Virus record (IMG/VR): IMGVR_UViG_2802429351_000001
Coordinates: 14,591 to 78,590 of that record
DNA length: 64,000 bases
From: a virus
Lineage: Duplodnaviria; Caudoviricetes
Reading direction: 5' to 3' (one strand)
In this document: piece after piece, positions 22,095 through 41,176 of the stretch
Layout of the letters: every line of letters starts with the position of its first letter
Position numbering within the stretch: position 1 is the first letter of the stretch
Program-made: the position numbers and the translations under genes
Notes under the pieces: generated by a model
What the model saw: only the letters and a program-made list of their open reading frames with translations
What the model was told of the DNA's origin: nothing
The model's database searches: none

Positions 22095-23091
22095 AGCATG
22101 GGATATACTAACACCAGAAGAAAAATCAGCTTTAAGCCTTTCAACTAATTATGGTAAAAGTAGTTGGGAGGCAGGGGAAATACTAAATAAACCCCATTAT
22201 AAATATTTGGAGATACAGGCCAGGGCTAAAACCTTCTTCAAGATATTTACTATCTATTTTGAAAAAACACAAGGTAATATAATCCCTATAAATTCTGACA
22301 TGACTTGGGATTTACAAGAATTTATTTTATGCACTATACAGAATAGAAAAGGTTATAGAGAAACATTGAAAATAATAGGTAAAGAAAGCCCTTTATCACA
22401 TAAGAAAGCATCACAAAGATTATTAGCTTTAGAAAAACACTTAGATTTCCTAGAAAATCACCCTGATCGTATACATAGGGATTTACATGATCTCATTAAG
22501 GAATTTGACAGGTGGAATAATTTTAGGATATTACCCCCAGAACTCCAGGAACCTTCAGCTTTCAAAAGGCGTAATAAAACCAGGTTATTAAAACATCTTA
22601 AAAATCTTAAAGAGCTTAATCCCTTTGATATAGATAGGTTGATGTTTAAATTTTCTGCTAAAGATAAGTACAAAGGTAGAAAACTATACTTACCATTGGT
22701 ATCAGATAATTTCCCAGATGGATATCAAGTAATAATAATAAAAGGTACATCTAAAATTGTTAATTATATTTCAGTTAACCTTAACCTCTACATTTTCAAA
22801 GACAAATTAGAAGCGGATGACTATGGGTTTCTAGTGGAAGACTATCTTAATAAAGGAAAGAAAAATTGTAAACAAGGTCAAAAGTTTTGGCCACAATTCC
22901 GGTTAAAGGTAGGTAAAGCCTATAATTATGCCCAAGTTAATAATATAATACCTAGAAGGGTAAACCTAGAAACAGCTTTCCGGGATTTAGATAAGTTAAC
23001 AGTAAATAAGATCAAAACCAAAGAAGCCAATGGTATAAATATAGGAGACCCACAGAAATCTGCTAAACAGAGTAAATTCTGGGAAATATAG
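22084..23091 (+). CDS. Protein with N-terminal sigma-region-4-like HTH (probable start 22084, not 22039)
   Basis: LTPEEKSALSLS...GKSSWEAGEILNKPHYKYLEIQARAK resembles a sigma70 r4/LuxR-type HTH. Confidence 0.5.
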   Translation: MNSRAWDILTPEEKSALSLSTNYGKSSWEAGEILNKPHYKYLEIQARAKTFFKIFTIYFEKTQGNIIPINSDMTWDLQEFILCTIQNRKGYRETLKIIGKESPLSHKKASQRLLALEKHLDFLENHPDRIHRDLHDLIKEFDRWNNFRILPPELQEPSAFKRRNKTRLLKHLKNLKELNPFDIDRLMFKFSAKDKYKGRKLYLPLVSDNFPDGYQVIIIKGTSKIVNYISVNLNLYIFKDKLEADDYGFLVEDYLNKGKKNCKQGQKFWPQFRLKVGKAYNYAQVNNIIPRRVNLETAFRDLDKLTVNKIKTKEANGINIGDPQKSAKQSKFWEI

Positions 23092-23115
23092 GTGTTCTAT
23101 TTATTTTTATATTTG
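23091..23115 (+). promoter_or_regulatory. GGTG-N13-TATATTTG promoter (copy 1)
   Basis: GGTG ttctatttatttt TATATTTG before 23144. Confidence 0.8.
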
Positions 23116-23143
23116 AACAAATAAATAAAAATACATATTAAAT

Positions 23144-23665
23144 ATGAAAACTAAAAAAAGAAAGGTTAATAATTATGAACAGGTTATGAAGCAGGCTTCG
23201 CACATGACTTTGAATGATTTAAAAAGACACTGTATATCAAGGGGGATGGATTTTCAAGAACTTATTGATGGTACTGTTATATCTTTACAAAATTGGTATC
23301 ATAGAAATTCCAATAATGATATAGATCTTTCTAGGATAGCTAAATTTGATGATTGGTTAGAAAAAATATTAAGGGATAGGGGTAAAGAAGAATTAATCCA
23401 CCCTCAATTACGCTTAAGCTATATAAGTGAAAATCAGAGTGATGATAAACCTAAAAAGGAAAAACCTAAAAAAGAAAAGAAAAAACCCCGGGAAAAAAAC
23501 AAACATGGTATATTCAAAGGCACTAAAAAAGCTTATACCTTTGAATTACAACAAAAGGGTAAAACCCTAACACAGGTCATTAAGAAGGTAACTAGAAAGT
23601 TTCCAGATGCTTCAGATAAATCTATTAAAATCTGGTATAAAAAAGCGGCTAGACTTAATGGGTAG
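23144..23665 (+). CDS. Basic hypothetical protein
   Basis: Lys-rich linker; HTH-like C-terminus. Confidence 0.65.
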   Translation: MKTKKRKVNNYEQVMKQASHMTLNDLKRHCISRGMDFQELIDGTVISLQNWYHRNSNNDIDLSRIAKFDDWLEKILRDRGKEELIHPQLRLSYISENQSDDKPKKEKPKKEKKKPREKNKHGIFKGTKKAYTFELQQKGKTLTQVIKKVTRKFPDASDKSIKIWYKKAARLNG

Positions 23666-24014
23666 TATTAAAAAAGATAGGTGGTATATAGTTGACCTAA
23701 GGAATAAAACCCAAGATAAAAAAAGCTATTGGTTATTAAGGGTTAACTTTAGAACCAAAGAAGAGGCAAGGAAAGTACTGAATAAAAATTTAGGTGATAA
23801 AATATTATTCTTTGATATAGTTAAAGGTGTTACAGCTATAGAGTTTGGTTTTAGGTATCCTAAAAATACCAAAGGCCCATCATACCTGGGTTATCTTAGG
23901 AAATATGATTATCCACCTGAACTTGAAACCATACAACAAAGAAAATCATATCGTACAAAATTCAGAAGATGGAAAAGGAATTACAAAGAAGAATTAAAAA
24001 GAAGTTGGGTATGA
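23658..24014 (+). CDS. Hypothetical protein with KYDYP...RKxYR motif (probable start 23658)
   Basis: ATG overlaps the upstream gene end; motif shared with 27890 and 32541. Confidence 0.6.
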   Translation: MGSIKKDRWYIVDLRNKTQDKKSYWLLRVNFRTKEEARKVLNKNLGDKILFFDIVKGVTAIEFGFRYPKNTKGPSYLGYLRKYDYPPELETIQQRKSYRTKFRRWKRNYKEELKRSWV

Positions 24015-24182
24015 AATTAGGTTTTATCATATTTTGGACATTAATAGCCTTATTCCTAATATTTTCACCCGTTTTACTATTGGAAGATGATTCTAAGATA
24101 GATGAGCTATGTATAATTGTAGGCATCTATATCTTAGTTATATTACTTGAATATACTATCAAAATATTGAAAAAGTAATCAT

Positions 24183-24959
24183 ATGGCTAGGAAAAAAAGA
24201 AACCGTAAAAAAAGGGATAAAAAACCTGGTTTATCAAAAGAATTTAGAAAAGAGATAGGTTTAAAACGTAAGAAAAATAAAAAGATAATTGACCCACCTA
24301 TCACCGAGTTACCTAAAGATAGGGAATATATTGAAGCTGAGAAAGAACAAGTAATTGAGGATATATTTGAAGGTAACCTTAATAGATTTATGAGAAAGTA
24401 TTATAGGGTATCAGAAAGGAACCTTATGACATTTTCTAAAGTAGTACCTAAATTACAAAAAGAAAGATCATCAAAAAGGGCTATAAGATGGTTATATAAA
24501 AAATGTAGGTGGCCAAGACACAGGCAAGAAATAATAAATATTCTATTAACCTTGGATAAATATTATGATGTAGAGTTTAGTAGGCCCAATATGGAGGTAG
24601 CTTTTGAGATATGGGAATTATTTTCAGATTACGAATTTTCTACATTTTTTAATAAAGCCTATGGTAAAACACTTGATAAAAAAGGTTTTGCTGGTATAAA
24701 AAGATTAAATAGTAAACAGGCTTTAAAAGAACAAAAAGCTATTGGTTACGTAAAAATAAAGAAATTTGAAGAACTAGATAAAAATTTTGCTCATGTGTAT
24801 TCCAATATAAAAGAGAATTTTATATACCCCTTTAATTTTTACCATGGTTTATATAAAGGGCCTAAAAAACATGAGCAAGTACAAATATATATTGGGCACC
24901 GATTATGTAATGGTTTTCGTAGTGGGTTCTCAAGAGTTGATACTGGAATTAAAATGTAA
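24183..24959 (+). CDS. Basic hypothetical protein (258 aa)
   Basis: Long ORF tiled in the + strand operon. Confidence 0.65.
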   Translation: MARKKRNRKKRDKKPGLSKEFRKEIGLKRKKNKKIIDPPITELPKDREYIEAEKEQVIEDIFEGNLNRFMRKYYRVSERNLMTFSKVVPKLQKERSSKRAIRWLYKKCRWPRHRQEIINILLTLDKYYDVEFSRPNMEVAFEIWELFSDYEFSTFFNKAYGKTLDKKGFAGIKRLNSKQALKEQKAIGYVKIKKFEELDKNFAHVYSNIKENFIYPFNFYHGLYKGPKKHEQVQIYIGHRLCNGFRSGFSRVDTGIKM

Positions 24960-24990
24960 TACTATTACACATTAACCAAATAATATTAAG

Positions 24991-25257
24991 ATGGCGATAA
25001 AAAGAGAGGTAGTAATAAGAACTTTAAAAATACCTATAGAAAGAAAAGGTGATAAGGTAATTGAAAAAAACGTAGATTCTAAGGAGATTGAGAAATTGGG
25101 TGAAGAACCAAGGACCTTGGAAAATTCGATAGTTGATTTACCTGAGTTAACCCGGGAAATAAAAAACTTTAACCAAAGACAATTCAAGTATGCGGAAGAT
25201 GATTCTAGCATGGACTATATCTTAAAGAAAATAATTAGTAGTAAAAGTAAATCATAA
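24991..25257 (+). CDS. Hypothetical protein
   Basis: Tiled + strand ORF preceded by TACTATT. Confidence 0.55.
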   Translation: MAIKREVVIRTLKIPIERKGDKVIEKNVDSKEIEKLGEEPRTLENSIVDLPELTREIKNFNQRQFKYAEDDSSMDYILKKIISSKSKS

Positions 25258-25277
25258 ATTCTATAAATAAATTAATT

Positions 25278-25754
25278 ATGACAAAGTTAAAAGGAAAAGA
25301 AATAGTAGACAGTTACAACCTAGGAGGTGGAATGGTACTTATTAAATTTGCCGATGGGACATTCATTACTGTATATTCTGTATCAGATGTTTTAGAACCT
25401 TCTCAATTTGGTTTTGATGAGGAAGCCACAGAAGAGGAGGATGAAGATCCCGATGAAGAGGAGGAAGAAGAAGACGAAGACCCCGAAGAGGAAGAAGAAG
25501 AAGATGAGGATGAAGACCCCGAAGAGGAAGAAGAAGAAGATGAGGATGATGAATTAACCGCTGAAGATCTTAAGGAAATGGACTTCGATGATCTAGAGGA
25601 TGTGGTTGATGACAATGAACTCGATATAGAGGTGGATGAATATGAAGATGATGAGGAATCCCTACGATACGAAGTAGCAAAAGCCCTAGGTATCAAATTA
25701 CCAAAACCTAAAAAATCCAAAGGTAAAGGTAAGAAAAAAGGTAAAAAGAAATAA
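25278..25754 (+). CDS. Highly acidic protein with tandem DEDPEEEEEE repeats and basic tail
   Basis: Three acidic repeats and a Lys-rich C-terminus. Confidence 0.7.
   Translation: MTKLKGKEIVDSYNLGGGMVLIKFADGTFITVYSVSDVLEPSQFGFDEEATEEEDEDPDEEEEEEDEDPEEEEEEDEDEDPEEEEEEDEDDELTAEDLKEMDFDDLEDVVDDNELDIEVDEYEDDEESLRYEVAKALGIKLPKPKKSKGKGKKKGKKK
25476..25547 (+). repeat. Exact 36-nt tandem duplication within the acidic ORF
   Basis: GAAGACCCCGAAGAGGAAGAAGAAGAAGATGAGGAT twice, plus a degenerate upstream copy. Confidence 0.85.
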
Positions 25755-25762
25755 ACCCGGTA

Positions 25763-25790
25763 GCCCCCTTTAATTAGGGGGTTCATTTTA
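25763..25790 (+). terminator. Intrinsic terminator
   Basis: CCCCCT-TTAATT-AGGGGG followed by TTCATTTT. Confidence 0.6.
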
Positions 25791-25835
25791 TTTAACAAGT
25801 AAATTTTTAATAATCATTTTTTAATAAATTTTATT

Positions 25836-26159
25836 ATGGCAAAAGCAAAAGCAGCCGCTAAGACGACTAAGAAAAAAGAAAAGAAAGAATCTTTTCTAAA
25901 AGATAACTATGAAGCAGTTATCAATGATTACAATGGTATCAGAACAGATGTTATGCATATCCGAGGCTACGGATGTATAGTAAGGGATGTTAACAAGGAA
26001 ACTGGGGCTATGACATCCGTATTTGTACCTGGGGTAAAACCTAAGAAGAAAAAGGATTACAGATACCTTATCGTAGACAAAGGGCCTAAACCTAAAAAAG
26101 ATAAAGGAACTAAGGCTGCCAAAAGTAAAAAATCTAAAACAGAATCCAGTGAAGATTAA
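25836..26159 (+). CDS. Lys/Ala-rich basic protein
   Basis: Histone-like termini around a small globular core. Confidence 0.65.
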   Translation: MAKAKAAAKTTKKKEKKESFLKDNYEAVINDYNGIRTDVMHIRGYGCIVRDVNKETGAMTSVFVPGVKPKKKKDYRYLIVDKGPKPKKDKGTKAAKSKKSKTESSED

Positions 26160-26304: not shown

Positions 26305-27258
26305 GATTAGATATAGAAGATAAGGATGAATTGGTAGTCTTAGAGGCATCACTATTAAAAATGGTAGATGAGATAATAGTTTCTAAGACTACCATTGAAG
26401 TCCTTATAGAGAATAATGGTAAAGAAGGTTATCCCCCTTATAATAAAGATGACCTAGAAATTTTGGATCAAGAACTAAAAGATGCCAAGAAAACTACTAT
26501 CTATTTAAAAGGCCTTATAGAAAAGGTCAATATTTTAAAGAAGGTAAATGGATAAGAAATTTTACATAAGGTATAGGATTTATTCTCAGAAAGCAGAAAA
26601 CGCGGATAGAAATTATCCTAAAAGATTATGTAAAAGTTTAACTAGACTACACCAGAATATAAAAGATGATAATCTTTTTTGGGAAAGAGAGTTCTCTAAA
26701 GAAAAACTTTATATCAGAACTTTTATACCCAAAAATCTGGAACACATTAATTGCCAATACTATAAACTAATAAAATATATCACCCAATACTTCGGGTGTT
26801 ATGCGATATGGCAAACCAAACTTATACCCGGGGCTATTAAACCTATAAATACTTTTGCTATTTCAGGTTATGGCCAAGACTTCTTACTAGCTTATCACTA
26901 CACTACAAAGATAATAGATAACCTTAATGATATGAGGTTCAATATGACTGCTGAGTTTCGTAGGTTAAAAATAAATAAAAGGAGAAGGGGAGAAAGCACC
27001 ATACATGATGAGAACTCCCAAATTAAATCAAGTACATTTTTCTATGAAAGCCTAAAGGAAATAGAAAAAGTATTACTAGAAAACCTAGAGCAAAGGCCTA
27101 CTTATGTAGCTGTAAGACTGAAAGAAGTATATACTGAGAAATATCTAAGAAGGTTAAGAGTATTACATTTTAGGCAGTATAACTATAAAGGTTTGCCTAA
27201 AATAGAAAATGCTTTTTCCCGGGAAAATAAATTCCAAAATCGCAGGATAATCAGGTGA
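26301..27258 (+). other. Two hypothetical CDSs (26301..26555, 26548..27258)
   Basis: Overlapping tiled + strand ORFs; no motif recognised. Confidence 0.6.
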
Positions 27259-27278
27259 TCTTTTATATTTTATATTTG
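27254..27278 (+). promoter_or_regulatory. GGTG-N13-TATATTTG promoter (copy 2)
   Basis: Exact spacing; precedes the ORF at 27300. Confidence 0.8.
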
Positions 27279-27299
27279 TATCAAATAATTAATTAAAAT

Positions 27300-27470
27300 A
27301 TGAAAATAAAATCAATAACTACCTATGTAGAAGATTCTAGCGATAATGAAGATCATGATACAACCGTTAATAATTTTATAACTAGTGTAATACCTATAAA
27401 ATTAACACATAAAGCTTTTGCCCAAGGTTGTATGGTTTTAACCACTATAATAGAATATAACGAGATATGA
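27300..27470 (+). CDS. Unannotated 56-aa ORF, paralog of 44180..44371
   Basis: MKIKSITTYVEDSSDNEDHDTTVNNFITSVIP...LTTIIEY; downstream of a promoter. Confidence 0.6.
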   Translation: MKIKSITTYVEDSSDNEDHDTTVNNFITSVIPIKLTHKAFAQGCMVLTTIIEYNEI

Positions 27471-28524: not shown

Positions 28525-29350
28525 ATGGCTAAACAAGAGAAACATAAAAAAATATTTGGACTAAATAAATTACCCGCTAAGGGTTATATCAAAGCCCTGG
28601 AAGAACAGGTAAAGGAACTCAAGGTAGAAAGGGGTAAGGACCAATCATACATTGAAGAGTTAGAGGATAGGTTAAGGGTTATAAAAGAATTAACGCCTGA
28701 AGAACTAGAGTGTATTAAGAAAAATAATGAAGTGATTCGATTAAGAAGTATAAAGAATAAACTAGAAAAGGACCTAAAGAAGTCCAGGGACGAATATAAA
28801 GAATTATTAACTAAACATATACAACTTAAATTAAAATACGATGAAGAAACATCAAAATAGGTCAGCAAACCGTAGAAACCAAAGAAAAGCAAATGCTTTC
28901 AATAAAAAATTAAATTCTGGGTTCATTAAATTAACCGAGGAATTTGCATCAAAGTACTTTGAAATTGCTATGGATACAGATATCCCAAAACAAGAAAAAG
29001 AGGATAAATACTTTGTAGAGCTTTTTAATAATTTTGATAAAAGATGGAGATATTATGTAAGATACCTTTTACATAATAATCGTAAGGATATAACCCTAGA
29101 AGTTGATAAAAGACAATCAGTCTTAAATAGTTTTAATGAATTTGCTTTAGAGTATATGGAGAAAACCGAAAAAAGAGATACTCCAGAAAATGTTATAGAA
29201 AGATATGGCATAGAAAAGGTATCACTTGTACTTAATTCAATGGGTGTAAATACCCAGGCTAAAACCAAAGCAGGTTTACAAAAAAGAGTTGATGCTTTAA
29301 AACCCGATGATGTGACGGTTCTAATAAAGGGTTTACATGGTGAATTTTAA
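28525..29350 (+). other. Two hypothetical CDSs (28525..28860 coiled coil; 28841..29350)
   Basis: Tiled + strand ORFs. Confidence 0.6.
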
Positions 29351-29363
29351 TTTATTATATTTG
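29339..29363 (+). promoter_or_regulatory. GGTG-N13-TATATTTG promoter (copy 3)
   Basis: Exact spacing; precedes 29386. Confidence 0.8.
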
Positions 29364-29385
29364 AATAAATTAATAAATAGAAATT

Positions 29386-29661
29386 ATGATTAAAGAATTT
29401 ATTAGATATTTAGGTTATGGTGCTGTTACCTTATTCTATTTTACTAGTATATATGGCATGGTGCTATTTGTATTAGAGGTTAAAAATAAGGTTAATCTTT
29501 TAATGGTTTTAATAGGTATATTAATGTTATTAATACTTATAATCTCTATCATATTTATAGGTTATTGTATACTAGGTATAGTTGAATCCTCTTTAAATAT
29601 ATTTGATAAGGATGGTAAATTACCTATAGAAAAAATAAAAGATAAAATTCTTAATAAATAA
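29386..29661 (+). CDS. Small two-TM membrane protein
   Basis: Two hydrophobic helices. Confidence 0.6.
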   Translation: MIKEFIRYLGYGAVTLFYFTSIYGMVLFVLEVKNKVNLLMVLIGILMLLILIISIIFIGYCILGIVESSLNIFDKDGKLPIEKIKDKILNK

Positions 29662-29666: not shown

Positions 29667-30032
29667 ATGACCAGAATTAATTGTGGGATACCTCCAGCCG
29701 AATTAACAGACAAACACCTATTAGCTGAGCATAGGGAGATAAAACGTATACCTAATACTATAAAATCGGGTAAAGCTAAGGTGGAAAACATACCCAGAGT
29801 ATTTACATTAGGTAAGGGGCACGTTAAATTCTTCTATGATAAGCTTTATTATTTACATATAAGGTATGTATTATTATATACTGAATGCATAAAGAGGGGT
29901 TTTAAAGTTACCTTTTATGGGGGTGCATTTGAAGGTTTACCTGACCACTTATATAGGGATTATTGTCCAACAACAGAAGATGAAAGAATCATCAGAGAGA
30001 GGATTAAATTGAGATTATCCGGTGTAAAATAA
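29667..30032 (+). CDS. denV: Pyrimidine-dimer DNA glycosylase (T4 endonuclease V family)
   Basis: MTRIN...LTDKHLLAEHREIKRI...FTLGKGHVKFFYDKL...KRGF. Confidence 0.92.
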   Translation: MTRINCGIPPAELTDKHLLAEHREIKRIPNTIKSGKAKVENIPRVFTLGKGHVKFFYDKLYYLHIRYVLLYTECIKRGFKVTFYGGAFEGLPDHLYRDYCPTTEDERIIRERIKLRLSGVK

Positions 30033-30045
30033 TAATTTATATTTG
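30021..30045 (+). promoter_or_regulatory. GGTG-N13-TATATTTG promoter (copy 4)
   Basis: Exact spacing; precedes 30069. Confidence 0.8.
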
Positions 30046-30068
30046 TATAAATTAAATAAAAAATAAGA

Positions 30069-30452
30069 ATGGTATTATTTGATAAATTAAGCCCAGCGCA
30101 AAAACAAATAATTGTTGATATATCCCGTATTCAATTATCCTCATTACGTAGAATATATAATAATGAGCATTTAACCGATGATGACCTGGTAATGTTATTT
30201 ATTTATAATGATATTACTAAGGAGGATTTTATAGCCGAACTTGATATTAAAATCGCAAAAATAAATAATTTTATCAAGGACCCGGATTCTATTCAAAAAA
30301 TGGATAAATACGAGCTATCAATATATAAGCATATACTTTTTCAAATCGAGGATAATTATAAGGATAGGTATCCTCAGGCACTATCCTCTATATGGGAAAG
30401 GTTATTTATTTTAACTGATTTTAAAATTGATTGGCCAATGGCCTTAAATTAA
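30069..30452 (+). CDS. Hypothetical protein
   Basis: ORF behind a promoter. Confidence 0.65.
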   Translation: MVLFDKLSPAQKQIIVDISRIQLSSLRRIYNNEHLTDDDLVMLFIYNDITKEDFIAELDIKIAKINNFIKDPDSIQKMDKYELSIYKHILFQIEDNYKDRYPQALSSIWERLFILTDFKIDWPMALN

Positions 30453-30721: not shown

Positions 30722-30750
30722 GAAAGACCCCAATAATATGGGGTCTTTCT
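30722..30750 (+). terminator. Intrinsic terminator
   Basis: GAAAGACCCCA-N6-TGGGGTCTTTC. Confidence 0.75.
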
Positions 30751-30760
30751 CTGTTTATAT

Positions 30761-30785
30761 GGTGTTCTTTTAATTATTATATTTG
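30761..30785 (+). promoter_or_regulatory. GGTG-N13-TATATTTG promoter (copy 5)
   Basis: Exact spacing; precedes 30814. Confidence 0.8.
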
Positions 30786-30813
30786 AATAAATTAATAAAT
30801 AAAATAAATAGTT

Positions 30814-31074
30814 ATGGCAAACATGAGTTATTGTAGATTCGAAAATACCCTATCTGATTTAAGGGATTGTTTAGAAGCATTCAAGGATATTAAACTTGAT
30901 CCAGAATGCGAAGAAAATCAATTAAGTACAAGAGAATTAGGATCTCTTGTAGAGATGATAGATATCATGAGAGAATTCTCTGAGGAACTCATTGAAATAG
31001 ATTTAGATCTAGAAGATGATATAACTAAAGAAGATTTAATAAAAGCATTACCTGGCATAGATGGAAAATATTAA
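30814..31074 (+). CDS. Conserved phage hypothetical protein (MSYCRFENT family)
   Basis: N-terminal NMSYCRFENTLSDLRDC, recalled as recurrent in phages. Confidence 0.6.
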   Translation: MANMSYCRFENTLSDLRDCLEAFKDIKLDPECEENQLSTRELGSLVEMIDIMREFSEELIEIDLDLEDDITKEDLIKALPGIDGKY

Positions 31075-32443: not shown

Positions 32444-32471
32444 TTCAAATTAGTTGTCAAACGGCTATTAC

Positions 32472-32496
32472 GGTGAATTATTATAAAATATATTTG
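32472..32496 (+). promoter_or_regulatory. GGTG-N13-TATATTTG promoter (copy 6)
   Basis: Exact spacing; precedes 32541. Confidence 0.8.
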
Positions 32497-32540
32497 TATT
32501 ATCAAATTAAAATAAATTATTAATTAAAACCATTTAGATT

Positions 32541-32891
32541 ATGGCAACTGTTAAAAAAGTAAGTAGTAAAGCTAAAACGTCCAAAAGTACAAAAGCTAAA
32601 GTAGGTAATACCAAAAAGGTAACCAGAAAAAAGGTAAACAAAAAAGACCTTGATCAAAAGAATATCAAGGATACCGTTACCAAGGTAGTAGAGACCAAAA
32701 GGGAATTGAAATATGATTACCCAAACGAAATGAAGGATACTCTTAAAAGGAAAAAATTTCGCCAAAAAGTTAGAAATAAAATCAATTCCTTCCAATTGCA
32801 TTTACTTAAATTGGATGAAAAATCCAAAGAATATAAAAAATTGGATAGGGAATATAAATCTTATAGGAAAGAGGTATTATTGGTACCTTAA
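32541..32891 (+). CDS. Basic protein with KYDYP motif
   Basis: KYDYPNEMKDTLKRKKFRQKVR. Confidence 0.7.
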   Translation: MATVKKVSSKAKTSKSTKAKVGNTKKVTRKKVNKKDLDQKNIKDTVTKVVETKRELKYDYPNEMKDTLKRKKFRQKVRNKINSFQLHLLKLDEKSKEYKKLDREYKSYRKEVLLVP

Positions 32892-32950: not shown

Positions 32951-32962
32951 ATGTGTTATACC

Positions 32963-32987
32963 GGTGTTCTTTAATTTATTATATTTG
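32963..32987 (+). promoter_or_regulatory. GGTG-N13-TATATTTG promoter (copy 7)
   Basis: Exact spacing; precedes 33022. Confidence 0.8.
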
Positions 32988-33021
32988 AATAACTAATAAA
33001 ATAAAAAAAAATATAGAAACT

Positions 33022-34361
33022 ATGAGTAATTTAAATCACGGGGAAATTAAAGATTCCAACCTATTACAAGAACATAGGGATTTAGTTGAATCATATCTTA
33101 ATAATGAAACTAAATTAGAACTAGAAGCTAAAAATAAGATACTAAAACTTTATGACCATTATTTACATAAAGATAATATCCGGTATTATATTAACCAACA
33201 TGTTAAAGTACTTATAGTACATATAGCCCAAGGTCAAGTAAAGAAAGCTGCTAAATACTTTCCTAAAGGATACCTAGAGGATGAGAATACTATTTAATCT
33301 AAAACACATATAAAATGGAAAATCAAACTAATTCTTTAAATCAAAAAGCTACATTATTCTATGCAAGATATGCATTTAAAACACAAGGCCTTAAAAAAGT
33401 TAAGGTTCACTATGAGGGATTAATTGATAAATGCCCTGGTGATTTAAAACAAGGCTTAAAAGGTTTAGAGAATTTTAAATACATAAGGATATGGCAGAAG
33501 GCAATTTAAATTGGGATTATGAAGGTTCGCCAAGTGGGCTTAAAAATAAAGCTCAAGAAATATTAAACCTTGCAAAGAAAAAAGAACTAAATATACCTAA
33601 AGGGTATAAAGCTATATGGGTTGATGGTCCCCTTAGAGCCAAAATAAGGAAAATAGTAAAAGAATAATATGGAAAGTCTTGGCGAATATAAGAATGATAT
33701 TTATATATTAGCCCAAAGGGTTAATGAATTTAGGGATTGGTGGGATAATAAAGTTAAATCACCAAATCGGATATCAGAAAGTCAATATGTTTCACTTTTA
33801 ACTAAAATGGATTATTAATGGTGATACATGATGCTAACTATATAGATAGGAAAGAGTTCTTAAGTATGGGCTATAATCATAATATTATGTTTTTGTTTAT
33901 ATTCTATAATAATGAAATCCTAAATAAAAAACCATTCAATTTAGGCCCAGAATTAAATAGGGATTGGTTATATTCTAAAGAGTTTGAGGATAGGATAGAC
34001 AACCTAGTAAAAAGGGGTTATATTAAAAAGGTATTCAAACCTTTCAAAAACCAATCTTACAAACTTTACTCAATTACACCTTATGGTTTAAAACAAGCAG
34101 AAAATGGCCTCAAAAATAAAATTTCAACCACAGCCTAAATTAGGGCCTCAACAACAGGTACTTTCCTTTATAGAGAAAAATTATAAAGGCCCTAAAAGAA
34201 CACATCTCATTAACTATTATAAAAACAACCCTATATCATGAAAGATTTAAAACCCTGGGAAATTATAGGCTTAATATATATTGCCTATGCTATATTTTTA
34301 TTTATGATAGCCTGGGCCTTAAGTAAGGATAAAAAACCTAAAAAAGGTGATAAAAGGTGAA
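33022..34361 (+). other. Run of small hypothetical CDSs (33022..33297, 33315..33509, 33818..34138 wHTH-like, plus several <60-aa ORFs)
   Basis: Tiled + strand ORFs; 33818 has a winged-helix-like LYSKEFEDRIDNLVKRGYI...YSITPYG. Confidence 0.5.
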
Positions 34362-34380
34362 TTATTAATTTCTATATTTG
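34356..34380 (+). promoter_or_regulatory. GGTG-N13-TATATTTG promoter (copy 8)
   Basis: Exact spacing; precedes 34413. Confidence 0.8.
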
Positions 34381-34412
34381 AATAAATTAATAATAAATAA
34401 AAATAAGTAATT

Positions 34413-35668
34413 ATGGAAAATTCAATTAAAACACCCTTTTGTTATCAAATCACCCAAGATATTATTTGGGAGTACATTGAACTGAAATATGGTATCTTAA
34501 CCGTAGAAAATTCTTTAGGTATAAGCGATATATTTGATCTAGCCAAAAACCTGGAAGAAGATGTACCTCAAAATGATAGGGTTAAACGTAATATATTAAT
34601 CCTTGCTTTATTTGAAAATCCTTGTAATGATTTAAAACTTAACGAGGTAATAATTGATTTAAGGAAACCAATAAATGATCAAATAAGTTGGAGTATAGCA
34701 TCATATGAAAAAATTCTTTGGTTAAACTATATAAGTCAACCAGAAGGTTATTATGGGGAATTTAGCATTGAATTTCAGGAAACCGATATAAATCCCAGTA
34801 TATTTGAAGAGGCCTTAGAAAAAGGTTTGATTAAACCGGGACCTAATTATTTAGATAAATATTGGGAAATAATGGAATGGTTCTTAAAACCAGTGTCATT
34901 TATAGATTGGGAATCTATAGAAAAAAGTAAAGGTGATACTTTCCTAGATGATGATCAGGTCATAGATATAGTTAAGCAATTAGACTTAGATAGGAAAACC
35001 TTAAGTACCCATAAATTAAATCAAATTAGAGTACAACTTATAAAAACATTATTATAATGGAACTAGAAAATTTTAAATTCAGAATTACAAGAGAAGCAAT
35101 AAGAGATCTAAATGGTTTATTAGGGAGTCTAAGTGATTTAAGTGATACACTTGGCCTTACCGGAAATGAGGATATAATGGTAGAATTTAGAGATCGCCGG
35201 GGATTTAATGAAAGGCCTATTGTTATTATTTATGACCTATATGCAGGGTTAAGTGATTTCCCAACTGGAGAAGAAGCGGCCGGTATAAGGGATTACAGTT
35301 ATGAGGACCTAATAGATGCTGGTATAGAAGATGGTAAGGCCATAAGGAAATTGATAGAAAAAGATTATATCGAGAAAGTAGACCCTGATGGGGAATTCCT
35401 GTTAGCGGTAAACGGTATATTCACCTTCCAAGATAAACCTAGCCCTAAATATATTTTAATTAGGGATAAAATACCTATGGATTCTTTACCCGGTATAGGT
35501 GAACAATGGGAACCTGTTTTAAGGTTATTGGATAAAGAGTTTAAGTATTCAATTATAAAAAATTATAAAGAGATTTGTCATAAAAATGAGGATCACTGTA
35601 AGACCAATCTAGAATTTGGATTTAAGGGATTAAGAACCCTAATATTTAAAAAATTGGGGATTTTATAA
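34413..35668 (+). other. Two acidic hypothetical CDSs (34413..35057, 35057..35668)
   Basis: Coupled ORFs between a promoter and a terminator. Confidence 0.65.
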
Positions 35669-35693
35669 TAATCCCTAAAAATTATAATATATT

Positions 35694-35725
35694 ACAAAGG
35701 CTCTACACTAAGGGCCTTTGTTTGT
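35694..35725 (+). terminator. Intrinsic terminator
   Basis: ACAAAGGC...GCCTTTGT-TTG. Confidence 0.55.
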
Positions 35726-35829
35726 TTATAGGCCTTAAACCCTTACAAATAAAGGCCTTATAATATATTATATTAAATCAAATCCTTTGGGCTTCCTAGA
35801 GCTCGACAAAAGAAGACAGTTGTTTATAT

Positions 35830-35854
35830 AGTGAATTATTAATTACTATATTTG
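35830..35854 (+). promoter_or_regulatory. AGTG-N13-TATATTTG promoter (copy 9)
   Basis: Exact spacing; precedes 35879. Confidence 0.75.
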
Positions 35855-35878
35855 AATATAATTAATAAATAAAATAAA

Positions 35879-36591
35879 ATGGAAAAACACCTAACATCTA
35901 ATGAAATAAAATTAATAGGCTTATTAGTTCACTCTTCACAAAACCATGAGCTTATAGAAGAGCTTATCGAAGACTCTTGGGATGAAATGGAAATGGATAT
36001 TCCCAAGGATTTTGATTACGTAGAAGAACTAGAACAACTTAAAAGGTTATTCCCAGACCCTGAAGAGAATGTGTTAGAATATTTAACTATAAAAAACAAA
36101 TAATGGAAAACTCAAATTACACCTTCGAAGATTTCGAAAAAGAAAGAGAACACCTATTACAATATATTGAGGTAGTAGGTAAGAAAGCCCCCAGTAAAGA
36201 ATTTTGTCAAATGTTCTTTAATAGAATTACTAAAGGCTGGGAATTATCCCAGGAAAAATGGAGGGGTGATTTAATAGATTACCATGCTTGGGGTTATGCT
36301 TTTTATGGTGATATAGATTATAATGGTGAAATCATAGCAAATTCCCTAAATATATGGCATTGGTTATCAGTTTATGGTATAAATGGAACTGACCCAGAGG
36401 AAGGTGTTTCTATAGAGATTACTTATAACCAGTATAGTTTCCTTTGGGATTTATTACAAAAGAACAAAACCTTTAATCAAGGGGTTATAGATAAGGCTCA
36501 TACTATAAATAGGAATACTTCTGGATTAGAGAAAAAAGCCCAGGATAATATAGATATGATTAATAAATTGTTAGATTCATTAACCGAGTAA
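35879..36591 (+). other. Two hypothetical CDSs (35879..36103, 36103..36591)
   Basis: Coupled ORFs. Confidence 0.6.
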
Positions 36592-36593
36592 TT

Positions 36594-36998: not shown

Positions 36999-37644
36999 AG
37001 ATATATCAAATATTCGGCGGATTAGAGATTTTAATAATCCTAGTTTTATTATTAATGTTTTTAAAAGAATATCCAAAACTGAGATGAGAAAGAATACACT
37101 AGAACCTAATAAAAAAGCTATAAAATTATTAAACCATTATAGTAAGAAAAATGCTCTAGCTAAGGCTATATCTAAAAGAAAAGAGATGCCAAAAGGAACT
37201 ATTGGGTACTTCTACTGGAAAGATGTAATTAAAATTATAAAAAAATGATTAGTAATATAAGTCCAGAAATAGAAGCAAAAGTATTATCCTGTGTAGATAA
37301 TATAAAAAGAAAGAATATACCTAAAGTATTAGGTGTAACAACAGCTTTGGTTAACTATATATTTGCTAAACATAAGATCAAGAGAAAGCCTAATAAGTAT
37401 GATAAATATGGTAGGCTAAAAGAAACACATAAAACAATATACCATTATGACAAAGATTAAGATGATCACAGTATTTGATCCACTATCAGGTAAAGATATT
37501 AATCTACCTTTACCAACTACTAAGTATGAATTGGTAAAGGCTACTATAAACGATATGAAAAAGGCTAACCCGGGTAAGGATATCAAAATAACCAGGGTTC
37601 AAGATGAGTTAATTTATGAGCCCGTGGACCCTAAAAATGAGTAA
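36989..37644 (+). other. Small hypothetical CDSs (36989..37087 TM peptide, 37084..37248, 37245..37460 HTH-like, 37447..37644)
   Basis: Overlapping tiled ORFs read by hand and from the track. Confidence 0.5.
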
Positions 37645-37648
37645 TACC

Positions 37649-37673
37649 AGTGTTTTTTAATTTCTTATATTTG
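37649..37673 (+). promoter_or_regulatory. AGTG-N13-TATATTTG promoter (copy 10)
   Basis: Exact spacing; precedes 37698. Confidence 0.75.
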
Positions 37674-37697
37674 AATATAATTAATAAATAAAAAATA

Positions 37698-38795
37698 ATG
37701 GAAAATTTTATTGTAGGCAAAACAGTATTAAAAGGCATAGATAAACAAACCTTCCAAGACGCAAAGAATTGGTTAGACCAACAAAATGGCTGCCCTTATG
37801 ATATTGATGAACATGTATTAGATGCAGCTAATAATATATCACAAGAAACCGGTGAAACAGTAGTGGAAGTAATAGAATCATGGGCATATAGTTATAATGA
37901 CCTAATGGCAGAGAAAGGTTTAAAAGAATTAAATAAACAATAGTTATAGTTATGGATAAAGGGATACTAAATGCAAAGCTTCTCCAAGATGGGAGATCAT
38001 TCTGGACAACAGACAATGGGTTCACATTTAAAATGCAGGACCAAAAAGGTGAAATCTTAGAAGTAACAGAGGCTTATTATAAGAAAATGCTAACACTGTG
38101 GAGAAAGGAGCAAAAACAATATAAGAAGGCGGGTAAGATTTTGGATAAAACTCATAAAACTATCGAAAAAGGTTTTGAAAAAGCAGAGTCTGAAAGAGTT
38201 GAATTTGTAAAAGCTTTAAAGAAAGGTATACCAGTAAGACCCTTAGGGATAGGTTATGCACATACTGATTTACATGATAATGAGCTTAGGAGTATAGGTC
38301 ATAAGGCTTCTCATTATTTACCAAAGGATGAGATTACAATAAACCTAAGAGCACTAGATGAAGAAGCCTTGGATGACCTTAAGTTTATATTAGAAGATCA
38401 ACTAGGAATGAAACCAGATGACACCAACGAGAAGGCATTAGATGCTATTAATAACTATAAAGAACTATAAGATCATGAAACACATAAGAGTTAAACTAGC
38501 AGAGACAAAAACCCAGGTAAATATCCTAACAATAAAGGATAACAATAGTGTTTATCAAACTGTACTGGATAATCAAGAACTACAAAACCTAAAGGATGAG
38601 CTAAATATCAATAAGGCCGAATCAGAAGATAATCACCTATCACCTGTAAAAATTAGGGCCTTAGCAGAACTAAGAAAGGCATATAGACAATACGAAAACC
38701 ATAAAAACCTAAGATATCTAGAATTAAAGGATAACTACCTTAAGATAGGACTAATCACCCAAGCGGATATAACAGAACTACTCCTAAAACAATAA
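37698..38795 (+). other. Three hypothetical CDSs (37698..37943, 37952..38470, 38442..38795)
   Basis: Tiled ORFs. Confidence 0.6.
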
Positions 38796-38800
38796 TAACA

Positions 38801-39307
38801 ATGAAACAACCAGTAGAAATAAAGGTAATCAAAACCTTATACAAAGGTAACCAAAACCTAACACAAATAATGTTCACCAATCGCAATAAGGGAGGCATTA
38901 TAAGTAAACAATCCTTAATCACCTTAGATGAGAAAGAACTACAATCACTTAAAAGCCAATTAAACGATAACGGTAAATCTAATAGATTAAGTTATACACC
39001 TAACCCTTGTAAAGGTGAAGCAGATAAAGAAGTTAACCAATGGATAAGCGTGGAAGATAGATTGCCAAATGGTGACACAGAATCCAATGAAACTGAAGTT
39101 GAAGTAATTGGTTATAATGAAAATTGGGTTCATCCAGATTTTAACCCCAATGGAACTAGAGTTTGTTGCATGGATGATTTTGGTTGGTATTCCGCTAGGT
39201 GGAATAATGAACATACTTTTTACAAAGATGTTAGTCCAGAAGAAGAGGATAATCCAACACATTGGAGACCAATACCAAAATCACCTAATCACCCAAAACA
39301 CAAATAA
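38801..39307 (+). CDS. DUF551-domain protein
   Basis: QWISVEDRLP...THWRPIP. Confidence 0.7.
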   Translation: MKQPVEIKVIKTLYKGNQNLTQIMFTNRNKGGIISKQSLITLDEKELQSLKSQLNDNGKSNRLSYTPNPCKGEADKEVNQWISVEDRLPNGDTESNETEVEVIGYNENWVHPDFNPNGTRVCCMDDFGWYSARWNNEHTFYKDVSPEEEDNPTHWRPIPKSPNHPKHK

Positions 39308-39498
39308 CAATGAATACAATAGAATTAAAAACCAACACACCTATAATAGGTAATCACCAACTAATTATCACAGACGAATGTGATAATGAAACCACCCACA
39401 ACCTTAGTGACTATGAATTAGAACAACTAATCACCCAGGTATCAAACCTAACCAACAACCCAAAAACAAAAATAAATCTTTAAATAAATAAAACAATT

Positions 39499-40305
39499 AT
39501 GAGAACACCAAGGCCAATAGGAACAACAAACATAGGGGCATCAATAAATAATAATCAAGATAACAACCTATTACAATTACATATAATAGATTCATATATC
39601 AATAGCAATTTCACTTACTGTAATAAGGCCATGAGCATAGAAGTATTTGCAAGGTATATAGGAATAGACAGACAGATGATATTAGAAAGGATTACTAATA
39701 AGGGTAAAGATCTATATCAAATGGTAGACCCAGAACAACAAGGTGATCAACTCAGGGCACTAATTGGAATCACTCTAGGAAATGCACTGACTGACCGTAG
39801 CTTAGCTCTAGAGCAGCATAGTATACTAGCTTCTGAGCAAGGGGGTGTATACAAACCTTTCATTTCCGGAGAGGTCAATAAGGCCCTAAAGCTAGTTATG
39901 GAATCCACATCCGGAATCCTTAATATCGCCAAATCGCTAGGGGGCAACCAAGGCCTTAATATAACTCTGAACAACCACAATGGCGATAACAACCAAGAGA
40001 ACCATAATTACCTTACTGCCCATCAAGCATTAGAACTTATGCATCAGCAGGCTAAGTTAGAAGACGGCCCCTCGTTGCTGGAAGATCCATCCGCTAAGAA
40101 GGCCTTATTTGAAAAGTATAATATAGGGGCTACTCCTATTGTAAAGGCTAATGAACAACAAGGCCTTGATGATAGTCGAGAGGGCCTTAATTTTAAGGAT
40201 CTGGCACAGTTATCAGATAGCAAGGTAGACCGGCCAGCTAAGGCTACACATATAGATAGAAGGGCTAGGGAGATTGAGATAGATCCTGATGAGGATCAGA
40301 TATAG
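39499..40305 (+). CDS. Hypothetical protein, candidate terminase small subunit
   Basis: N-terminal HTH-like SIEVFARYIGIDRQMIL, helical core, NITLNN strand; adjacent to a repeat patch; no TerS-like gene next to TerL. Confidence 0.3.
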   Translation: MRTPRPIGTTNIGASINNNQDNNLLQLHIIDSYINSNFTYCNKAMSIEVFARYIGIDRQMILERITNKGKDLYQMVDPEQQGDQLRALIGITLGNALTDRSLALEQHSILASEQGGVYKPFISGEVNKALKLVMESTSGILNIAKSLGGNQGLNITLNNHNGDNNQENHNYLTAHQALELMHQQAKLEDGPSLLEDPSAKKALFEKYNIGATPIVKANEQQGLDDSREGLNFKDLAQLSDSKVDRPAKATHIDRRAREIEIDPDEDQI

Positions 40306-40503
40306 GGCCTTAAGTCCTTAATACATATTGAAAGTTTTGTTGGGGGTAAAGTACTCGTGGTAGGGCTCTGGGATTAATATCTTAGGGCCTTATTTATGTT
40401 GTTTTAGGGCCCCCAGCAAAGGTGCTTTACTTACGATCTTAGGGCCTTCAATGGTAGGGCCTTATTGTTGAGGTGATTTAGGGCCTTAATAGACTAGGGC
40501 CTT
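40303..40503 (+). repeat. Cluster of TAGGGCCTT direct repeats
   Basis: Exact copies at 40303, 40383, 40440, 40455, 40479, 40495; variants at 40361 and 40405. Confidence 0.85.
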
Positions 40504-40513
40504 TAAGCAGTCT

Positions 40514-40558
40514 ACGGCCGTAAAGGATAATCTGGTGTTTTATTAATTATTATATTTG
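40514..40558 (+). promoter_or_regulatory. ACGGCCGT-N12-GGTG-N13-TATATTTG promoter (copy 11)
   Basis: Palindrome 40514..40521, GGTG 40534, TATATTTG 40551. Confidence 0.8.
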
Positions 40559-40591
40559 TATTATAAATAAATAATTAAATAAATAGAAATT

Positions 40592-40996
40592 ATGAAATCA
40601 ATTACAGCAGATCAAATCCTTAAAAACACCTACACATTAGGCAAAGCATTTAGGGAATTACCAACTAACCTTATAAGTAAACTTTTATCAGATGACCTTA
40701 AAACACCTAGGGATTTAAATTCATTTAACCCCTGGAAAAACTATTTACCAAAAAGGACCTTTTTTCAAACAGAGGGTGATTTAAATGAGCTCTACCTTAT
40801 GGCCATAAGGGATATGTTATCACCTTATGATTTGATTAATCCCAGGGTACCAGGTTTTATTAATCTGGTGGATTTTGCAATGGCATCCAGTGATATTATG
40901 GGTTATGAGGAATTTGAGAAACTAGAGGTAGTTCAGGATTGGAAACATGAATACCCTAATATGTTCAAGACACTATTGGTATGGGCTTGGGGTTAA
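40592..40996 (+). CDS. Hypothetical protein
   Basis: Monocistronic unit between a promoter and a terminator. Confidence 0.7.
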   Translation: MKSITADQILKNTYTLGKAFRELPTNLISKLLSDDLKTPRDLNSFNPWKNYLPKRTFFQTEGDLNELYLMAIRDMLSPYDLINPRVPGFINLVDFAMASSDIMGYEEFEKLEVVQDWKHEYPNMFKTLLVWAWG

Positions 40997-41003
40997 TTTA
41001 TAT

Positions 41004-41035
41004 AAGGCCTAGGATTATATCCTGGGCTTTGTTGT
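41004..41035 (+). terminator. Intrinsic terminator
   Basis: AAGGCCTAGGA-N5-TCCTGGGCTTT-GTTG. Confidence 0.65.
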
Positions 41036-41131
41036 GTAAGGATACTGTGTTAGGGCCCAGGAGCAATGGGTGTATGTATATGGCTTGAGGGCCTTATAGA
41101 GGATTAACCTAAAGGCCTTAATACTCCTTCG

Positions 41132-41176
41132 ACGGCCGTGGTAGTATTACTGGTGAACTTTAATAAATTATATTTG
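41132..41176 (+). promoter_or_regulatory. ACGGCCGT-N12-GGTG-N13-TATATTTG promoter (copy 12)
   Basis: Palindrome 41132..41139, GGTG 41152, TATATTTG 41169. Confidence 0.8.

What the first reader, a model, noticed from the sequence alone, without database searches (positions are those of the whole stretch)
23091..41176. Twelve copies of a rigid (G/A)GTG-N13-TATATTTG promoter
Seen: GGTG (10 copies) or AGTG (2 copies) exactly 13 nt upstream of TATATTTG at 23091, 27254, 29339, 30021, 30761, 32472, 32963, 34356, 35830, 37649, 40534 and 41152. Each lies about 20-35 nt before a start codon with an AT-only spacer bias. Established: TAnnTTTG is the Bacteroidota -7 box, whose normal partner is TTTG 19-21 nt upstream. 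Inference: a phage-specific hybrid promoter class, with the host -7 box plus a new upstream element read by a phage activator (analogous to T4 MotA-box middle promoters) or an unrecognised extended contact of the host sigma.
Basis: partly seen in the sequence, partly recalled or inferred. Interest (0 to 1): 0.8.

Follow-up and report, generated by a model that had tools for sequence, protein, structure and literature searches.

The report
Phage promoter class replacing host −33
Twelve near-identical promoters drive the early-gene block of an uncultured 78.6-kb phage of a Bacteroidota-type host; they keep the host's −7 box but replace the host's −33 box with a fixed GTG word seven bases closer, a design shared by one clade of related phages and not yet described.

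Summary
All 12 (G/A)GTG-N13-TATATTTG sites exist (expected 0.03) and are the only ones in the complete 78.6-kb genome. All lie on the + strand, 22-45 nt before start codons of unrelated small genes. Each belongs to a ~55-nt box (47-59 bits; next best 6.5).

Comparative data make them real promoters of a distinct class:
- In relatives whose syntenic 333-aa protein is at least 49% identical, 29 of 30 distinct strong TATATTTG boxes have GTG at exactly N13, and none has a −33 TTG.
- In more distant relatives, 89 of 180 have the canonical host TTG at N19-21.
- A separate clade has CAGG at N13.
- A second complete genome (G006) has 16 such boxes. Box presence matched at 17 of 17 orthologous genes.
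- Strict box-pattern hits: 12 singles in IMG/VR, 32 in 596 Gb of prokaryote genomes.

The core is NGTG, not (G/A)GTG. The geometry matches T4 MotA-box middle promoters, but there is no MotA or AsiA homologue. Two proposed activators are a probable ECF-like sigma and a sigma-region-4 protein. Both are family-wide and fit better with a second, family-wide TACTAT promoter class.

Who reads GTG is unresolved: a phage regulator is favoured over a host RNA polymerase contact. The scan earlier found only canonical TTG-N20 repeated promoters on other DNA.

The parts
23081..23143 (+). Box 1 (GGTG-N13-TATATTTG plus leader). It begins at the stop codon of the sigma4-like 333-aa gene and drives gene 23144-23665 and those downstream.
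   Evidence: It is syntenic in all near relatives, and the G006 orthologue also has a box.
27244..27299 (+). Box 2, before gene 27300-27470.
29329..29385 (+). Box 3, before gene 29386-29661.
30011..30068 (+). Box 4, before gene 30069-30452.
   Evidence: The G006 orthologue also has a box.
30751..30813 (+). Box 5, directly after an intrinsic terminator hairpin (30722-30749) and before gene 30814-31074.
32462..32540 (+). Box 6, before gene 32541-32891.
   Evidence: The G006 orthologue also has a box.
32953..33021 (+). Box 7, after a hairpin and before gene 33022-33297.
   Evidence: The G006 orthologue also has a box.
34346..34412 (+). Box 8, before gene 34413-35057.
35820..35878 (+). Box 9 (AGTG), downstream of terminator 35694-35721 and before gene 35879-36103.
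37639..37697 (+). Box 10 (AGTG), before gene 37698-37943.
40524..40591 (+). Box 11, at the end of a 286-nt gap rich in TAGGGCCTT repeats and before gene 40592-40996.
41142..41200 (+). Box 12, before gene 41201-41404.
42303..42333 (+). Comparator: the genome's only intergenic canonical host-type promoter, TTG-N20-TATATTTG (TTTG at −33), before gene 42374.
   Evidence: It is not conserved in G006.
2483..2524 (-). Comparator: promoter of the sigma-like gene. It has a perfect TATATTTG and an AT-rich upstream region, with neither GTG nor TTG.
   Evidence: G006 has the same design.
1814..2482 (-). 222-aa probable ECF-like sigma factor (sigma2, linker, sigma4-like helical domain). It is family-wide.
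22084..23091 (+). 333-335-aa protein with an N-terminal sigma-region-4 (−35-binding type) HTH domain and an unassigned C-terminal ~270 aa. It is family-wide, and its stop abuts box 1.

Best explanation
The 12 boxes are the promoters of the phage's early-gene block, giving twelve short operons of small, unrelated genes. Host RNA polymerase carrying the Bacteroidota primary sigma reads the perfect −7 box TATATTTG. It should start 4-5 nt downstream in the conserved (A/T)ATAA, giving A/T-only leaders of about 17-40 nt. The host's −33 TTG (normally 19-21 nt upstream) has been lost. In its place stands NGTG at −29 to −26, exactly 13 nt from the −7 box, followed by a T-rich spacer with a fixed A at −18. 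This element is a second, sequence-specific protein contact that marks the whole block as one regulon. The most likely reader is a phage-encoded regulator that docks there. The leading version is activation by substituting for the sigma region 4 / −33 contact, as T4 MotA does. The second version is timed shut-off by a repressor. Shown: sequence, rigid register, clade distribution, conservation at orthologous positions, replacement of −33.
For: 1. Discreteness: 12 sites against 0.03 expected, a discrete 55-nt family, all co-oriented with genes. The downstream genes are not paralogues.
2. Terminators or T-tracts directly precede several boxes here and in relatives.
3. Clade conservation: 29/30 strong boxes in relatives at 49% identity or more have GTG at exactly N13, none at N12 or N14, and none has TTG at N19-21. 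Among far relatives, 89/180 have TTG at N19-21.
4. The GTG state maps to one clade (support 99/95), and CAGG-N13 to another (100/100).
5. G006 has 16 boxes in the syntenic block. Four use TAAATTTG, so the −7 box varies within the host consensus. One is inverted together with its minus-strand gene.
6. Box presence or absence is concordant at 17/17 orthologous genes, at 23-59% protein identity.
7. The sigma-like gene has the same −7 box without GTG in both genomes, so GTG is class-specific and not needed for a −7 promoter as such.
8. The sequence at N13 is lineage-specific at a fixed register (GTG, CAGG, nnGG). It is extended to a CAC-N-GTG dyad in 8 of 29 relative boxes by my count of the listing, which suggests a co-evolving, possibly dimeric, binding protein.
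9. The strict box is absent as a repeated feature from 2.9 M viral contigs and 596 Gb of prokaryote genomes. The loose form is about 5 per Mb in five Bacteroidota genomes against about 150 per Mb here.
10. The geometry equals that of T4 middle promoters: a phage box at −35 to −26, 12±1 bp from −10, replacing −35, with a stringent need for an excellent −10 (PMC2988021). −28 and −18 are positions where F. johnsoniae promoters carry AT-rich motifs, and the TSS lies 4-5 nt after the −7 box (PMC6847099).
Against: No transcript data exist. No DNA-binding protein specific to the GTG clade could be identified: the clade-specific early proteins (258 aa, 236 aa) give no significant family or structure match. 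G006 has no intergenic canonical promoter, and the one in this genome is not conserved. An activator made de novo therefore has no obvious conserved first promoter, unless it is injected, is made from basal activity, or lies in the sigma-dependent wave. In far relatives the syntenic promoters are plain host promoters, which suggests that this block fires immediately on unmodified polymerase. In F. johnsoniae the −33 motif is weak anyway (PMC6847099), so loss of TTG need not call for a substitute.
Confidence: 0.45

Rival explanations
1. Host-only reading. These are immediate-early promoters recognised by unmodified host holoenzyme. GTG at −28 to −26 (with the A/T tract and A at −18) is a direct contact of the host polymerase (sigma region 4 in an alternative register, or alpha-CTD) that these phages have optimised. 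No phage factor is involved.
For: In far relatives the syntenic promoters are canonical host promoters. G006 has no other sigma-A-type promoters apart from the sigma gene's own. F. johnsoniae promoters show weak −33 and motifs at −18 and −28, on the same DNA face (PMC6847099). The −7 box varies only within TAnnTTTG.
Against: The host motif at −28 is AT-rich, not GTG (PMC6847099). The box is not recurrent in bacterial genomes. Related phage clades use different words (GTG or CAGG) at the same register, which is unexpected for a conserved host sigma. The sigma gene's promoter does without it.
Confidence: 0.28
2. Operator reading. The −7 box with its A/T-rich upstream is a self-sufficient early promoter. 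NGTG (a CAC-N-GTG dyad in some lineages) is the operator of a phage repressor that shuts off the whole early block together once the sigma-dependent phase begins.
For: Some lineages have canonical TTG at −33 and also GG at N13, so a complete promoter coexists with the extra site. There is dyad symmetry in 8 of 29 relative boxes (my count of the listing). The sigma gene, needed throughout, lacks the site. No conserved first promoter for an activator exists.
Against: It does not explain why −33 was lost in both clades that have a strong N13 word and no TTG. This genome's own boxes show no dyad. No repressor candidate was identified.
Confidence: 0.17
3. Phage-sigma reading. The whole box is the cognate promoter of the phage's own ECF-like sigma (gene 1814-2482), perhaps helped by the sigma4-like 333-aa protein, with GTG as its −35-like element.
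For: The genome encodes a probable two-domain sigma and a protein with a −35-binding-type domain whose gene ends at box 1. The recognition helix of the latter differs at 2-3 positions between promoter-type clades.
Against: Both proteins are family-wide, including in MT121964 and other clades with canonical host promoters at the syntenic sites. The −7 box is exactly the host consensus and varies within it. A 13-nt gap is about 5 nt shorter than the ECF −35/−10 spacing as I recall it (not checked here). A different family-wide word, TACTAT(T), lies 20-30 nt before replication and structural genes and is conserved at orthologous sites in 40/69 relatives; it is the more natural target of a family-wide sigma. 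The sigma gene's own promoter lacks GTG.
Confidence: 0.07
4. Not promoters. The boxes are repeats spread by recombination or gene conversion, such as recombination hotspots or packaging or replication signals, that only resemble a −7 box.
For: Within-genome homogeneity of non-core positions (the base before GTG, the leader) is compatible with concerted evolution.
Against: The boxes are strictly co-oriented with genes, 22-45 nt before starts, and invert together with the gene in G006. Positions are conserved at 17/17 orthologous genes. The core is invariant across about 50% protein divergence while the flanks drift. Terminators lie immediately upstream.
Confidence: 0.03

Closest known systems
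T4 middle promoters (MotA box with sigma70 −10; sigma appropriation by AsiA/MotA; Hinton 2010, PMC2988021)
   Same: Both have a host-type downstream element kept at near-perfect consensus. Both have a phage-specific upstream word replacing the −35/−33 box. The register is almost identical (MotA box at −35 to −26, 12±1 bp from −10; here NGTG ends at −26, 13 bp from the −7 box). Both occur as many copies in front of pre-replicative genes.
   Different: The host phylum and sigma differ (sigma-ABfr type, −7 TAnnTTTG). The word is different and much shorter. The spacing is absolutely rigid. There is no MotA or AsiA homologue. The block looks like the first-expressed region rather than a second wave. 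No canonical early promoter set is conserved in the clade.
Canonical Bacteroidota sigma-A promoters (−33 TTTG / −7 TAnnTTTG; Bayley 2000 and Chen 2007 as cited in PMC6847099) and repeated canonical early promoters of Bacteroidota phages (far relatives here; MT121964; earlier scan finding e1-1066393)
   Same: The −7 box is the same. Leader length and A/T-rich leader are the same. Both sit as many strong copies before small early genes. The positions are syntenic in the same phage family.
   Different: The −33 TTG at N19-21 is absent from all 12 boxes here and from 29/30 in the clade. It is replaced by GTG at N13.
T4 late promoters / gp55-type or ECF-sigma-dependent phage promoters
   Same: The genome does encode its own probable sigma and has a second, −10-only-looking class (TACTATT, 22-31 nt before starts).
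   Different: That description fits the TACTAT class, not the GTG boxes. The GTG boxes carry the host −7 consensus.

Membership tests
Bacteroidota primary-sigma (sigma-ABfr) promoter | −7 element TAnnTTTG (TAHHTTTG) about 4-5 nt upstream of the start | tested here: met
   All 12 boxes carry TATATTTG. G006 boxes use TATATTTG or TAAATTTG. The start site itself is not mapped.
Bacteroidota primary-sigma (sigma-ABfr) promoter | −33 element TTTG/TTG 19-21 nt upstream of the −7 element | tested here: not met
   0 of 12 boxes here and 0 of 29 in near relatives have it. Far relatives have it in 89 of 180 boxes, and it is present at the comparator promoter at window 42303-42333.
T4-type sigma appropriation (MotA/AsiA middle promoters) | Host −10-type element plus a phage box replacing −35, about 12-13 bp upstream | tested here: met
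   NGTG lies exactly 13 nt upstream of the −7 box and −33 is absent. The T4 geometry is taken from PMC2988021.
T4-type sigma appropriation (MotA/AsiA middle promoters) | MotA (PF09114, PF09158) and AsiA (PF09010) homologues encoded by the phage | tested here: not met
   No match at E<=1 in the six-frame search of the complete genome.
T4-type sigma appropriation (MotA/AsiA middle promoters) | Activity depends on phage early proteins (absent with chloramphenicol or in uninfected cells) | not testable with these tools
   This needs infection or reporter experiments.
Sigma70-family factor (gene 1814-2482) | Sigma2 and sigma4 helical domains joined by a linker | tested here: inconclusive
   The AF2 model has pLDDT 81. 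All top 50 Foldseek rows are sigma factors, but E>=0.018. VIA Z is 7-8.6; the N-domain (residues 11-92) aligns on sigma2 at rmsd 2.3-3.8 A. The atlas neighbour cluster carries Sigma70_r2 in 100% of members at score 0.96. There is no Pfam hit.
Sigma region 4 / −35-binding HTH (N-terminus of gene 22084-23091) | Three-to-four-helix HTH superposable on region 4 | tested here: met
   In the Foldseek-independent search the top 18 of 48,161 chains are sigma region 4, with Z 8.0-9.5 and rmsd 1.2-2.8 A over 53-63 residues. Foldseek gives rmsd 0.8-1.0 and target TM 0.72-0.80. This establishes fold only; DNA binding is untested.

The most novel reading that the evidence does not exclude
A clade of Bacteroidota phages has evolved its own way of capturing the host polymerase. 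That would be an independent, non-homologous reinvention of T4 sigma appropriation on the unusual sigma-ABfr. Sister clades use CAGG, or both elements, and would show the evolutionary path.
Probability: 0.3. Interest if true: 0.8.

Novelty: new variant of a known kind. Interest (0 to 1): 0.62.

Why it matters
Transcription control in phages of Bacteroidota is almost unexplored, and the phylum's primary sigma is atypical. This is a clean, testable case. One phage family has four promoter architectures at syntenic sites: TTG-N20; TTG plus GG; CAGG-N13; GTG-N13. These point to an upstream element that took over from the host −33 box. Finding its reader would either reveal a new phage transcription factor acting on sigma-ABfr polymerase or expose an unknown polymerase-DNA contact at −28. 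The boxes are also compact candidate promoters (untested) for genetic tools in Flavobacteriia.

Tried and rejected
- Megablast of the structural module against GenBank phages gave no match. The PolA and MCP protein searches found only distant relatives, at most 53% identical.
- The first loose collection pattern saturated with chance hits. L032 looked promising at 37.7 bits but is a 20% GC chance match. PolA-based relatives L125-L127 showed no box.
- The genome search 'relatives' is not available for virus records, and the L032 record is not held.
Relatives were reached instead with the search for related loci on an alignment.
- Pfam and PHROG scans of the genes behind the boxes and of the candidate regulators gave nothing usable. 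PDB sequence and profile searches for 1814, 22084, 42374 and the 258-aa and 236-aa families gave nothing significant. The word-indexed homologue search for the 258-aa protein found only one relative.
- Cassette duplication as the origin of the repeats is rejected, because the downstream genes are not paralogues.
- Sigma-54-type and ECF-type spacing were considered and rejected on geometry recalled from general knowledge.
- The idea that gene 42374 behind the canonical promoter is a conserved first-expressed activator is rejected as a clade-wide scheme.
- Literature searches for a described Bacteroidota phage promoter class or for sigma appropriation in Bacteroidetes found nothing.

Full report
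OBSERVATION

The pattern RGTG-N13-TATATTTG occurs 12 times in the window, at exactly the coordinates given. All copies are on the + strand, against 0.03 expected from shuffles.

The window is bases 14,591-78,590 of a complete 78,590-bp IMG/VR virus record with a 99-bp end repeat. These 12 are the only copies in the whole genome; there are none on the other strand and none for the reversed control.

TATATTTG itself is enriched (30 against 11.5 expected). Of the 18 TAnnTTTG boxes lying within 120 nt upstream of a same-strand start, 12 are this class and only one (window 42326) has a canonical TTG at 19-21 nt.

A PWM over 55 nt scores the 12 sites at 47-59 bits and the next best position in 128 kb of both strands at 6.5 bits, so the family is discrete with no degenerate members. 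Extra near-invariant positions are a G eight nt upstream of GGTG (11/12), T+7, T+9, A+11, and A/T just after the −7 box. Spacer and leader contain no G. Relaxing the −7 box adds only one site, in coding DNA.

GENOME CONTEXT

The window holds, in order:
- tail genes;
- a lone minus-strand gene (1814-2482);
- a 20-kb replication block with DnaB, primase, helicase, PolA, UvsX, SbcC, a PDDEXK nuclease, a weak NusG-like gene and a 333-aa gene;
- the 18-kb box-bearing block of about 60 small ORFs without family matches;
- 7 kb more of small ORFs ending in a C5 methylase;
- three minus-strand genes;
- terminase, portal, protease and major capsid genes.

Each box lies 22-45 nt before the first ATG of a short operon. 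Several boxes follow intrinsic terminators. The genes behind the boxes are not paralogues, so the repeats are not by-products of gene duplication.

RELATIVES

No close cultured relative exists.

The strict box pattern has only 12 single, chance-like hits in 2.9 million viral contigs. It has 32 scattered single hits in 596 Gb of prokaryote genomes, mostly in AT-rich non-Bacteroidota.

In five Bacteroidota genomes the loose form GGTG-N13-TAnnTTTG occurs 93 times in 17.3 Mb, against 54 for the reversed control. That is about 5 per Mb, against about 150 per Mb in the phage.

The 222-aa and 333-aa proteins turned out to be markers of a large family of 60-87-kb phages.

COMPARATIVE RESULT

In relatives whose 333-aa protein is at least 49% identical, 29 of 30 distinct strong TATATTTG boxes have GTG at exactly N13. 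None has it at N12 or N14, and none has TTG at N19-21.

In the remaining relatives (45% or less), 77 of 180 have TTG at N20 (plus 12 at N19 or N21) and only 5 have GTG at N13.

The base before GTG is lineage-specific: G here and in L259/L260, C in L253/L257, A or T in L169/L262-L264. The core is therefore NGTG.

Two related loci (L283, L287) have CAGG-N13-TATATTTG without TTG. Several lineages have TTGCA at −33, nnGG at N13 and TATATTTGCA.

On a maximum-likelihood tree of the 333-aa protein, the GTG loci form one clade with this genome (support 99/95) and the CAGG loci form another (100/100). Deeper branching is unresolved.

The first box is syntenic in all of them, directly after the stop of the 333-aa gene. 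The same promoter position therefore carries TTG..GTGG, CAGG, or NGTG in different clades.

A SECOND COMPLETE GENOME

G006 (77,888 bp; marker protein 50% identical) has 10 forward and 1 reverse GTG-N13-TATATTTG against 0 for the control.

Allowing TAAATTTG gives 15 forward NGTG boxes plus one ACTG variant. All lie in the 22 kb after the 333-aa gene. The reverse one sits 35 nt before a minus-strand gene.

Box positions track orthology. All 4 box-proximal genes with a G006 orthologue have a box there, and all 13 non-box genes with an orthologue have none, at 23-59% protein identity.

These points together make promoter function the only reasonable reading: conservation of position and of the GTG/−7 core while genes and flanks diverge, inversion together with the gene, and −7 variation only within the host consensus.

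HOW IT PROBABLY WORKS

By the F. johnsoniae numbering (T−12 ... G−5; TSS 4-5 nt after the box; PMC6847099):
- the spacer runs from −25 to −13;
- GTG is at −28 to −26;
- the fixed A is at −18;
- the conserved (A/T)ATAA holds the start;
- predicted leaders are 17-40 nt.

The same paper reports that −33 is weak in F. johnsoniae and that AT-rich motifs at −18 and −28 are more pronounced. The phage element therefore sits on a face of the DNA that the host polymerase already uses, but with a non-host word.

T4 middle promoters have the same logic and nearly the same register: a MotA box at −35 to −26, 12±1 bp from −10, replacing −35, with a stringent −10 (PMC2988021). However, MotA and AsiA families are absent from the genome.

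CANDIDATE READERS

Gene 1814-2482 is a probable ECF-like sigma:
- atlas neighbours include a cluster with Sigma70_r2 in all members;
- the AF2 model shows two helical domains with a linker;
- every top structural match is a sigma factor, with Z 7-8.6.

Gene 22084-23091 has an N-terminal domain that matches sigma region 4. The top 18 of 48,161 chains are region 4, with Z 8.0-9.5 and rmsd 1.2-2.8 A over 53-63 residues.

Both proteins are family-wide, including in MT121964, which uses canonical TTTG-N20 promoters. The recognition helix of the sigma4-like protein is nearly the same in all clades.

A different word, TACTAT(T), lies 22-31 nt before replication and structural genes here. It is enriched before starts and is conserved before the PDDEXK orthologue in 40 of 69 relatives from all clades. 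That class is the natural target of the family-wide sigma.

The sigma gene's own promoter has a perfect −7 box, an AT-rich upstream region and no GTG in both complete genomes. GTG is therefore a mark of one regulon, not a general requirement.

The canonical promoter before gene 42374 is not conserved in G006.

Early genes specific to the GTG clade exist (24183-24959 in 8 near loci; 26548-27258 in 5). They give no significant domain or structure match; the best is the wHTH of SlyA at E = 0.25.

VERDICT

It is a real promoter class, a new variant of the host-downstream-element plus phage-specific-upstream-element design.

Who reads NGTG remains open. The arguments for a phage regulator are:
- a lineage-specific word at a fixed register;
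- dyads of the form CAC-N-GTG in 8 of 29 relative boxes (my count of the listing);
- restriction to one regulon;
- no recurrent occurrence in the bacterial genomes searched.

The arguments for direct reading by host polymerase are the syntenic host-type promoters in relatives and the lack of any other conserved first promoter.

My odds:
- phage regulator as an activator, 0.45 (this also covers the general promoter statement);
- host-only contact, 0.28;
- repressor operator, 0.17;
- phage sigma, 0.07;
- not a promoter, 0.03.

Noticed in passing
window 2572, 7296, 20818, 24960, 33288, 50419, 57355; minus strand 50201; genome 5457: A second candidate promoter class: TACTATT lies 22-31 nt before same-strand starts of replication, head and tail genes (69 nt for the copy at 50419). 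Seven upstream windows hold it against 0.66 expected. TACTAT is conserved before the PDDEXK orthologue in 40/69 relatives of all clades. It is probably the target of the phage's own sigma-like protein.
   Followed up: partly
window 1814-2482 (−): The lone minus-strand 222-aa gene is a probable ECF-like sigma factor. It is 53-84% identical among the 120 best of 370 homologues, on 60-82-kb phage contigs, and has no Pfam hit. Its own promoter is a −7-only TATATTTG.
   Followed up: partly
window 22084-23091: A 333-335-aa family (the real start is probably 22084, not 22039). It has an N-terminal sigma-region-4 HTH and an unassigned ~270-aa C-terminal part with a small beta-hairpin and helices. The motif KS(T/S)W(E/Q)AGEI..H(Y/F)K.LEI is invariant. 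It is a useful marker gene: 386 IMG/VR and 421 metagenome loci.
   Followed up: partly
loci L283:5424-14825 and L287:5938-13941: A sister clade uses CAGG-N13-TATATTTG (9 of 12 boxes) with almost the same spacer (TTATATTAATATT), also without a −33 TTG.
   Followed up: partly
loci L176, L177, L209, L268, L289: Apparently intermediate promoters, TTGCA-nnnGG-N13-TATATTTGCA, carry both the host −33 and a G-rich word at the N13 register.
   Followed up: partly
window 35669-35878, 40306-40533, 40997-41151, 42016-42300: GC-rich TAGGGCCTT / AAGGCC words are clustered in the long non-coding gaps just upstream of boxes 9, 11 and 12 and of the canonical promoter. This is unexplained; they could be an origin, a pac site or regulator sites.
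   Followed up: no
genome 1-451 and 78492-78590: The 99-bp end repeat falls inside a collagen-like (Gly-X-Y-coding, GGNCCNGAAGG-rich) stretch. The repeat looks like an assembly overlap of a circularly closed contig rather than true physical ends.
   Followed up: no
MT121964.1 37671-38276 (−): In this canonical-promoter gut relative, the sigma-like gene's promoter reads GTTG-N13-TATATTTG. That is TTG at the N13 register instead of N20. It is a single case.
   Followed up: no
window 24183-24959 and 26548-27258: Early proteins of 258 and 236 aa are conserved only in the GTG clade (8 and 5 near loci), and the first has a very basic N-terminus. The family profile's best PDB match is the wHTH of SlyA at E=0.25, which is not significant. 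They are untested candidates for a clade-specific factor.
   Followed up: partly
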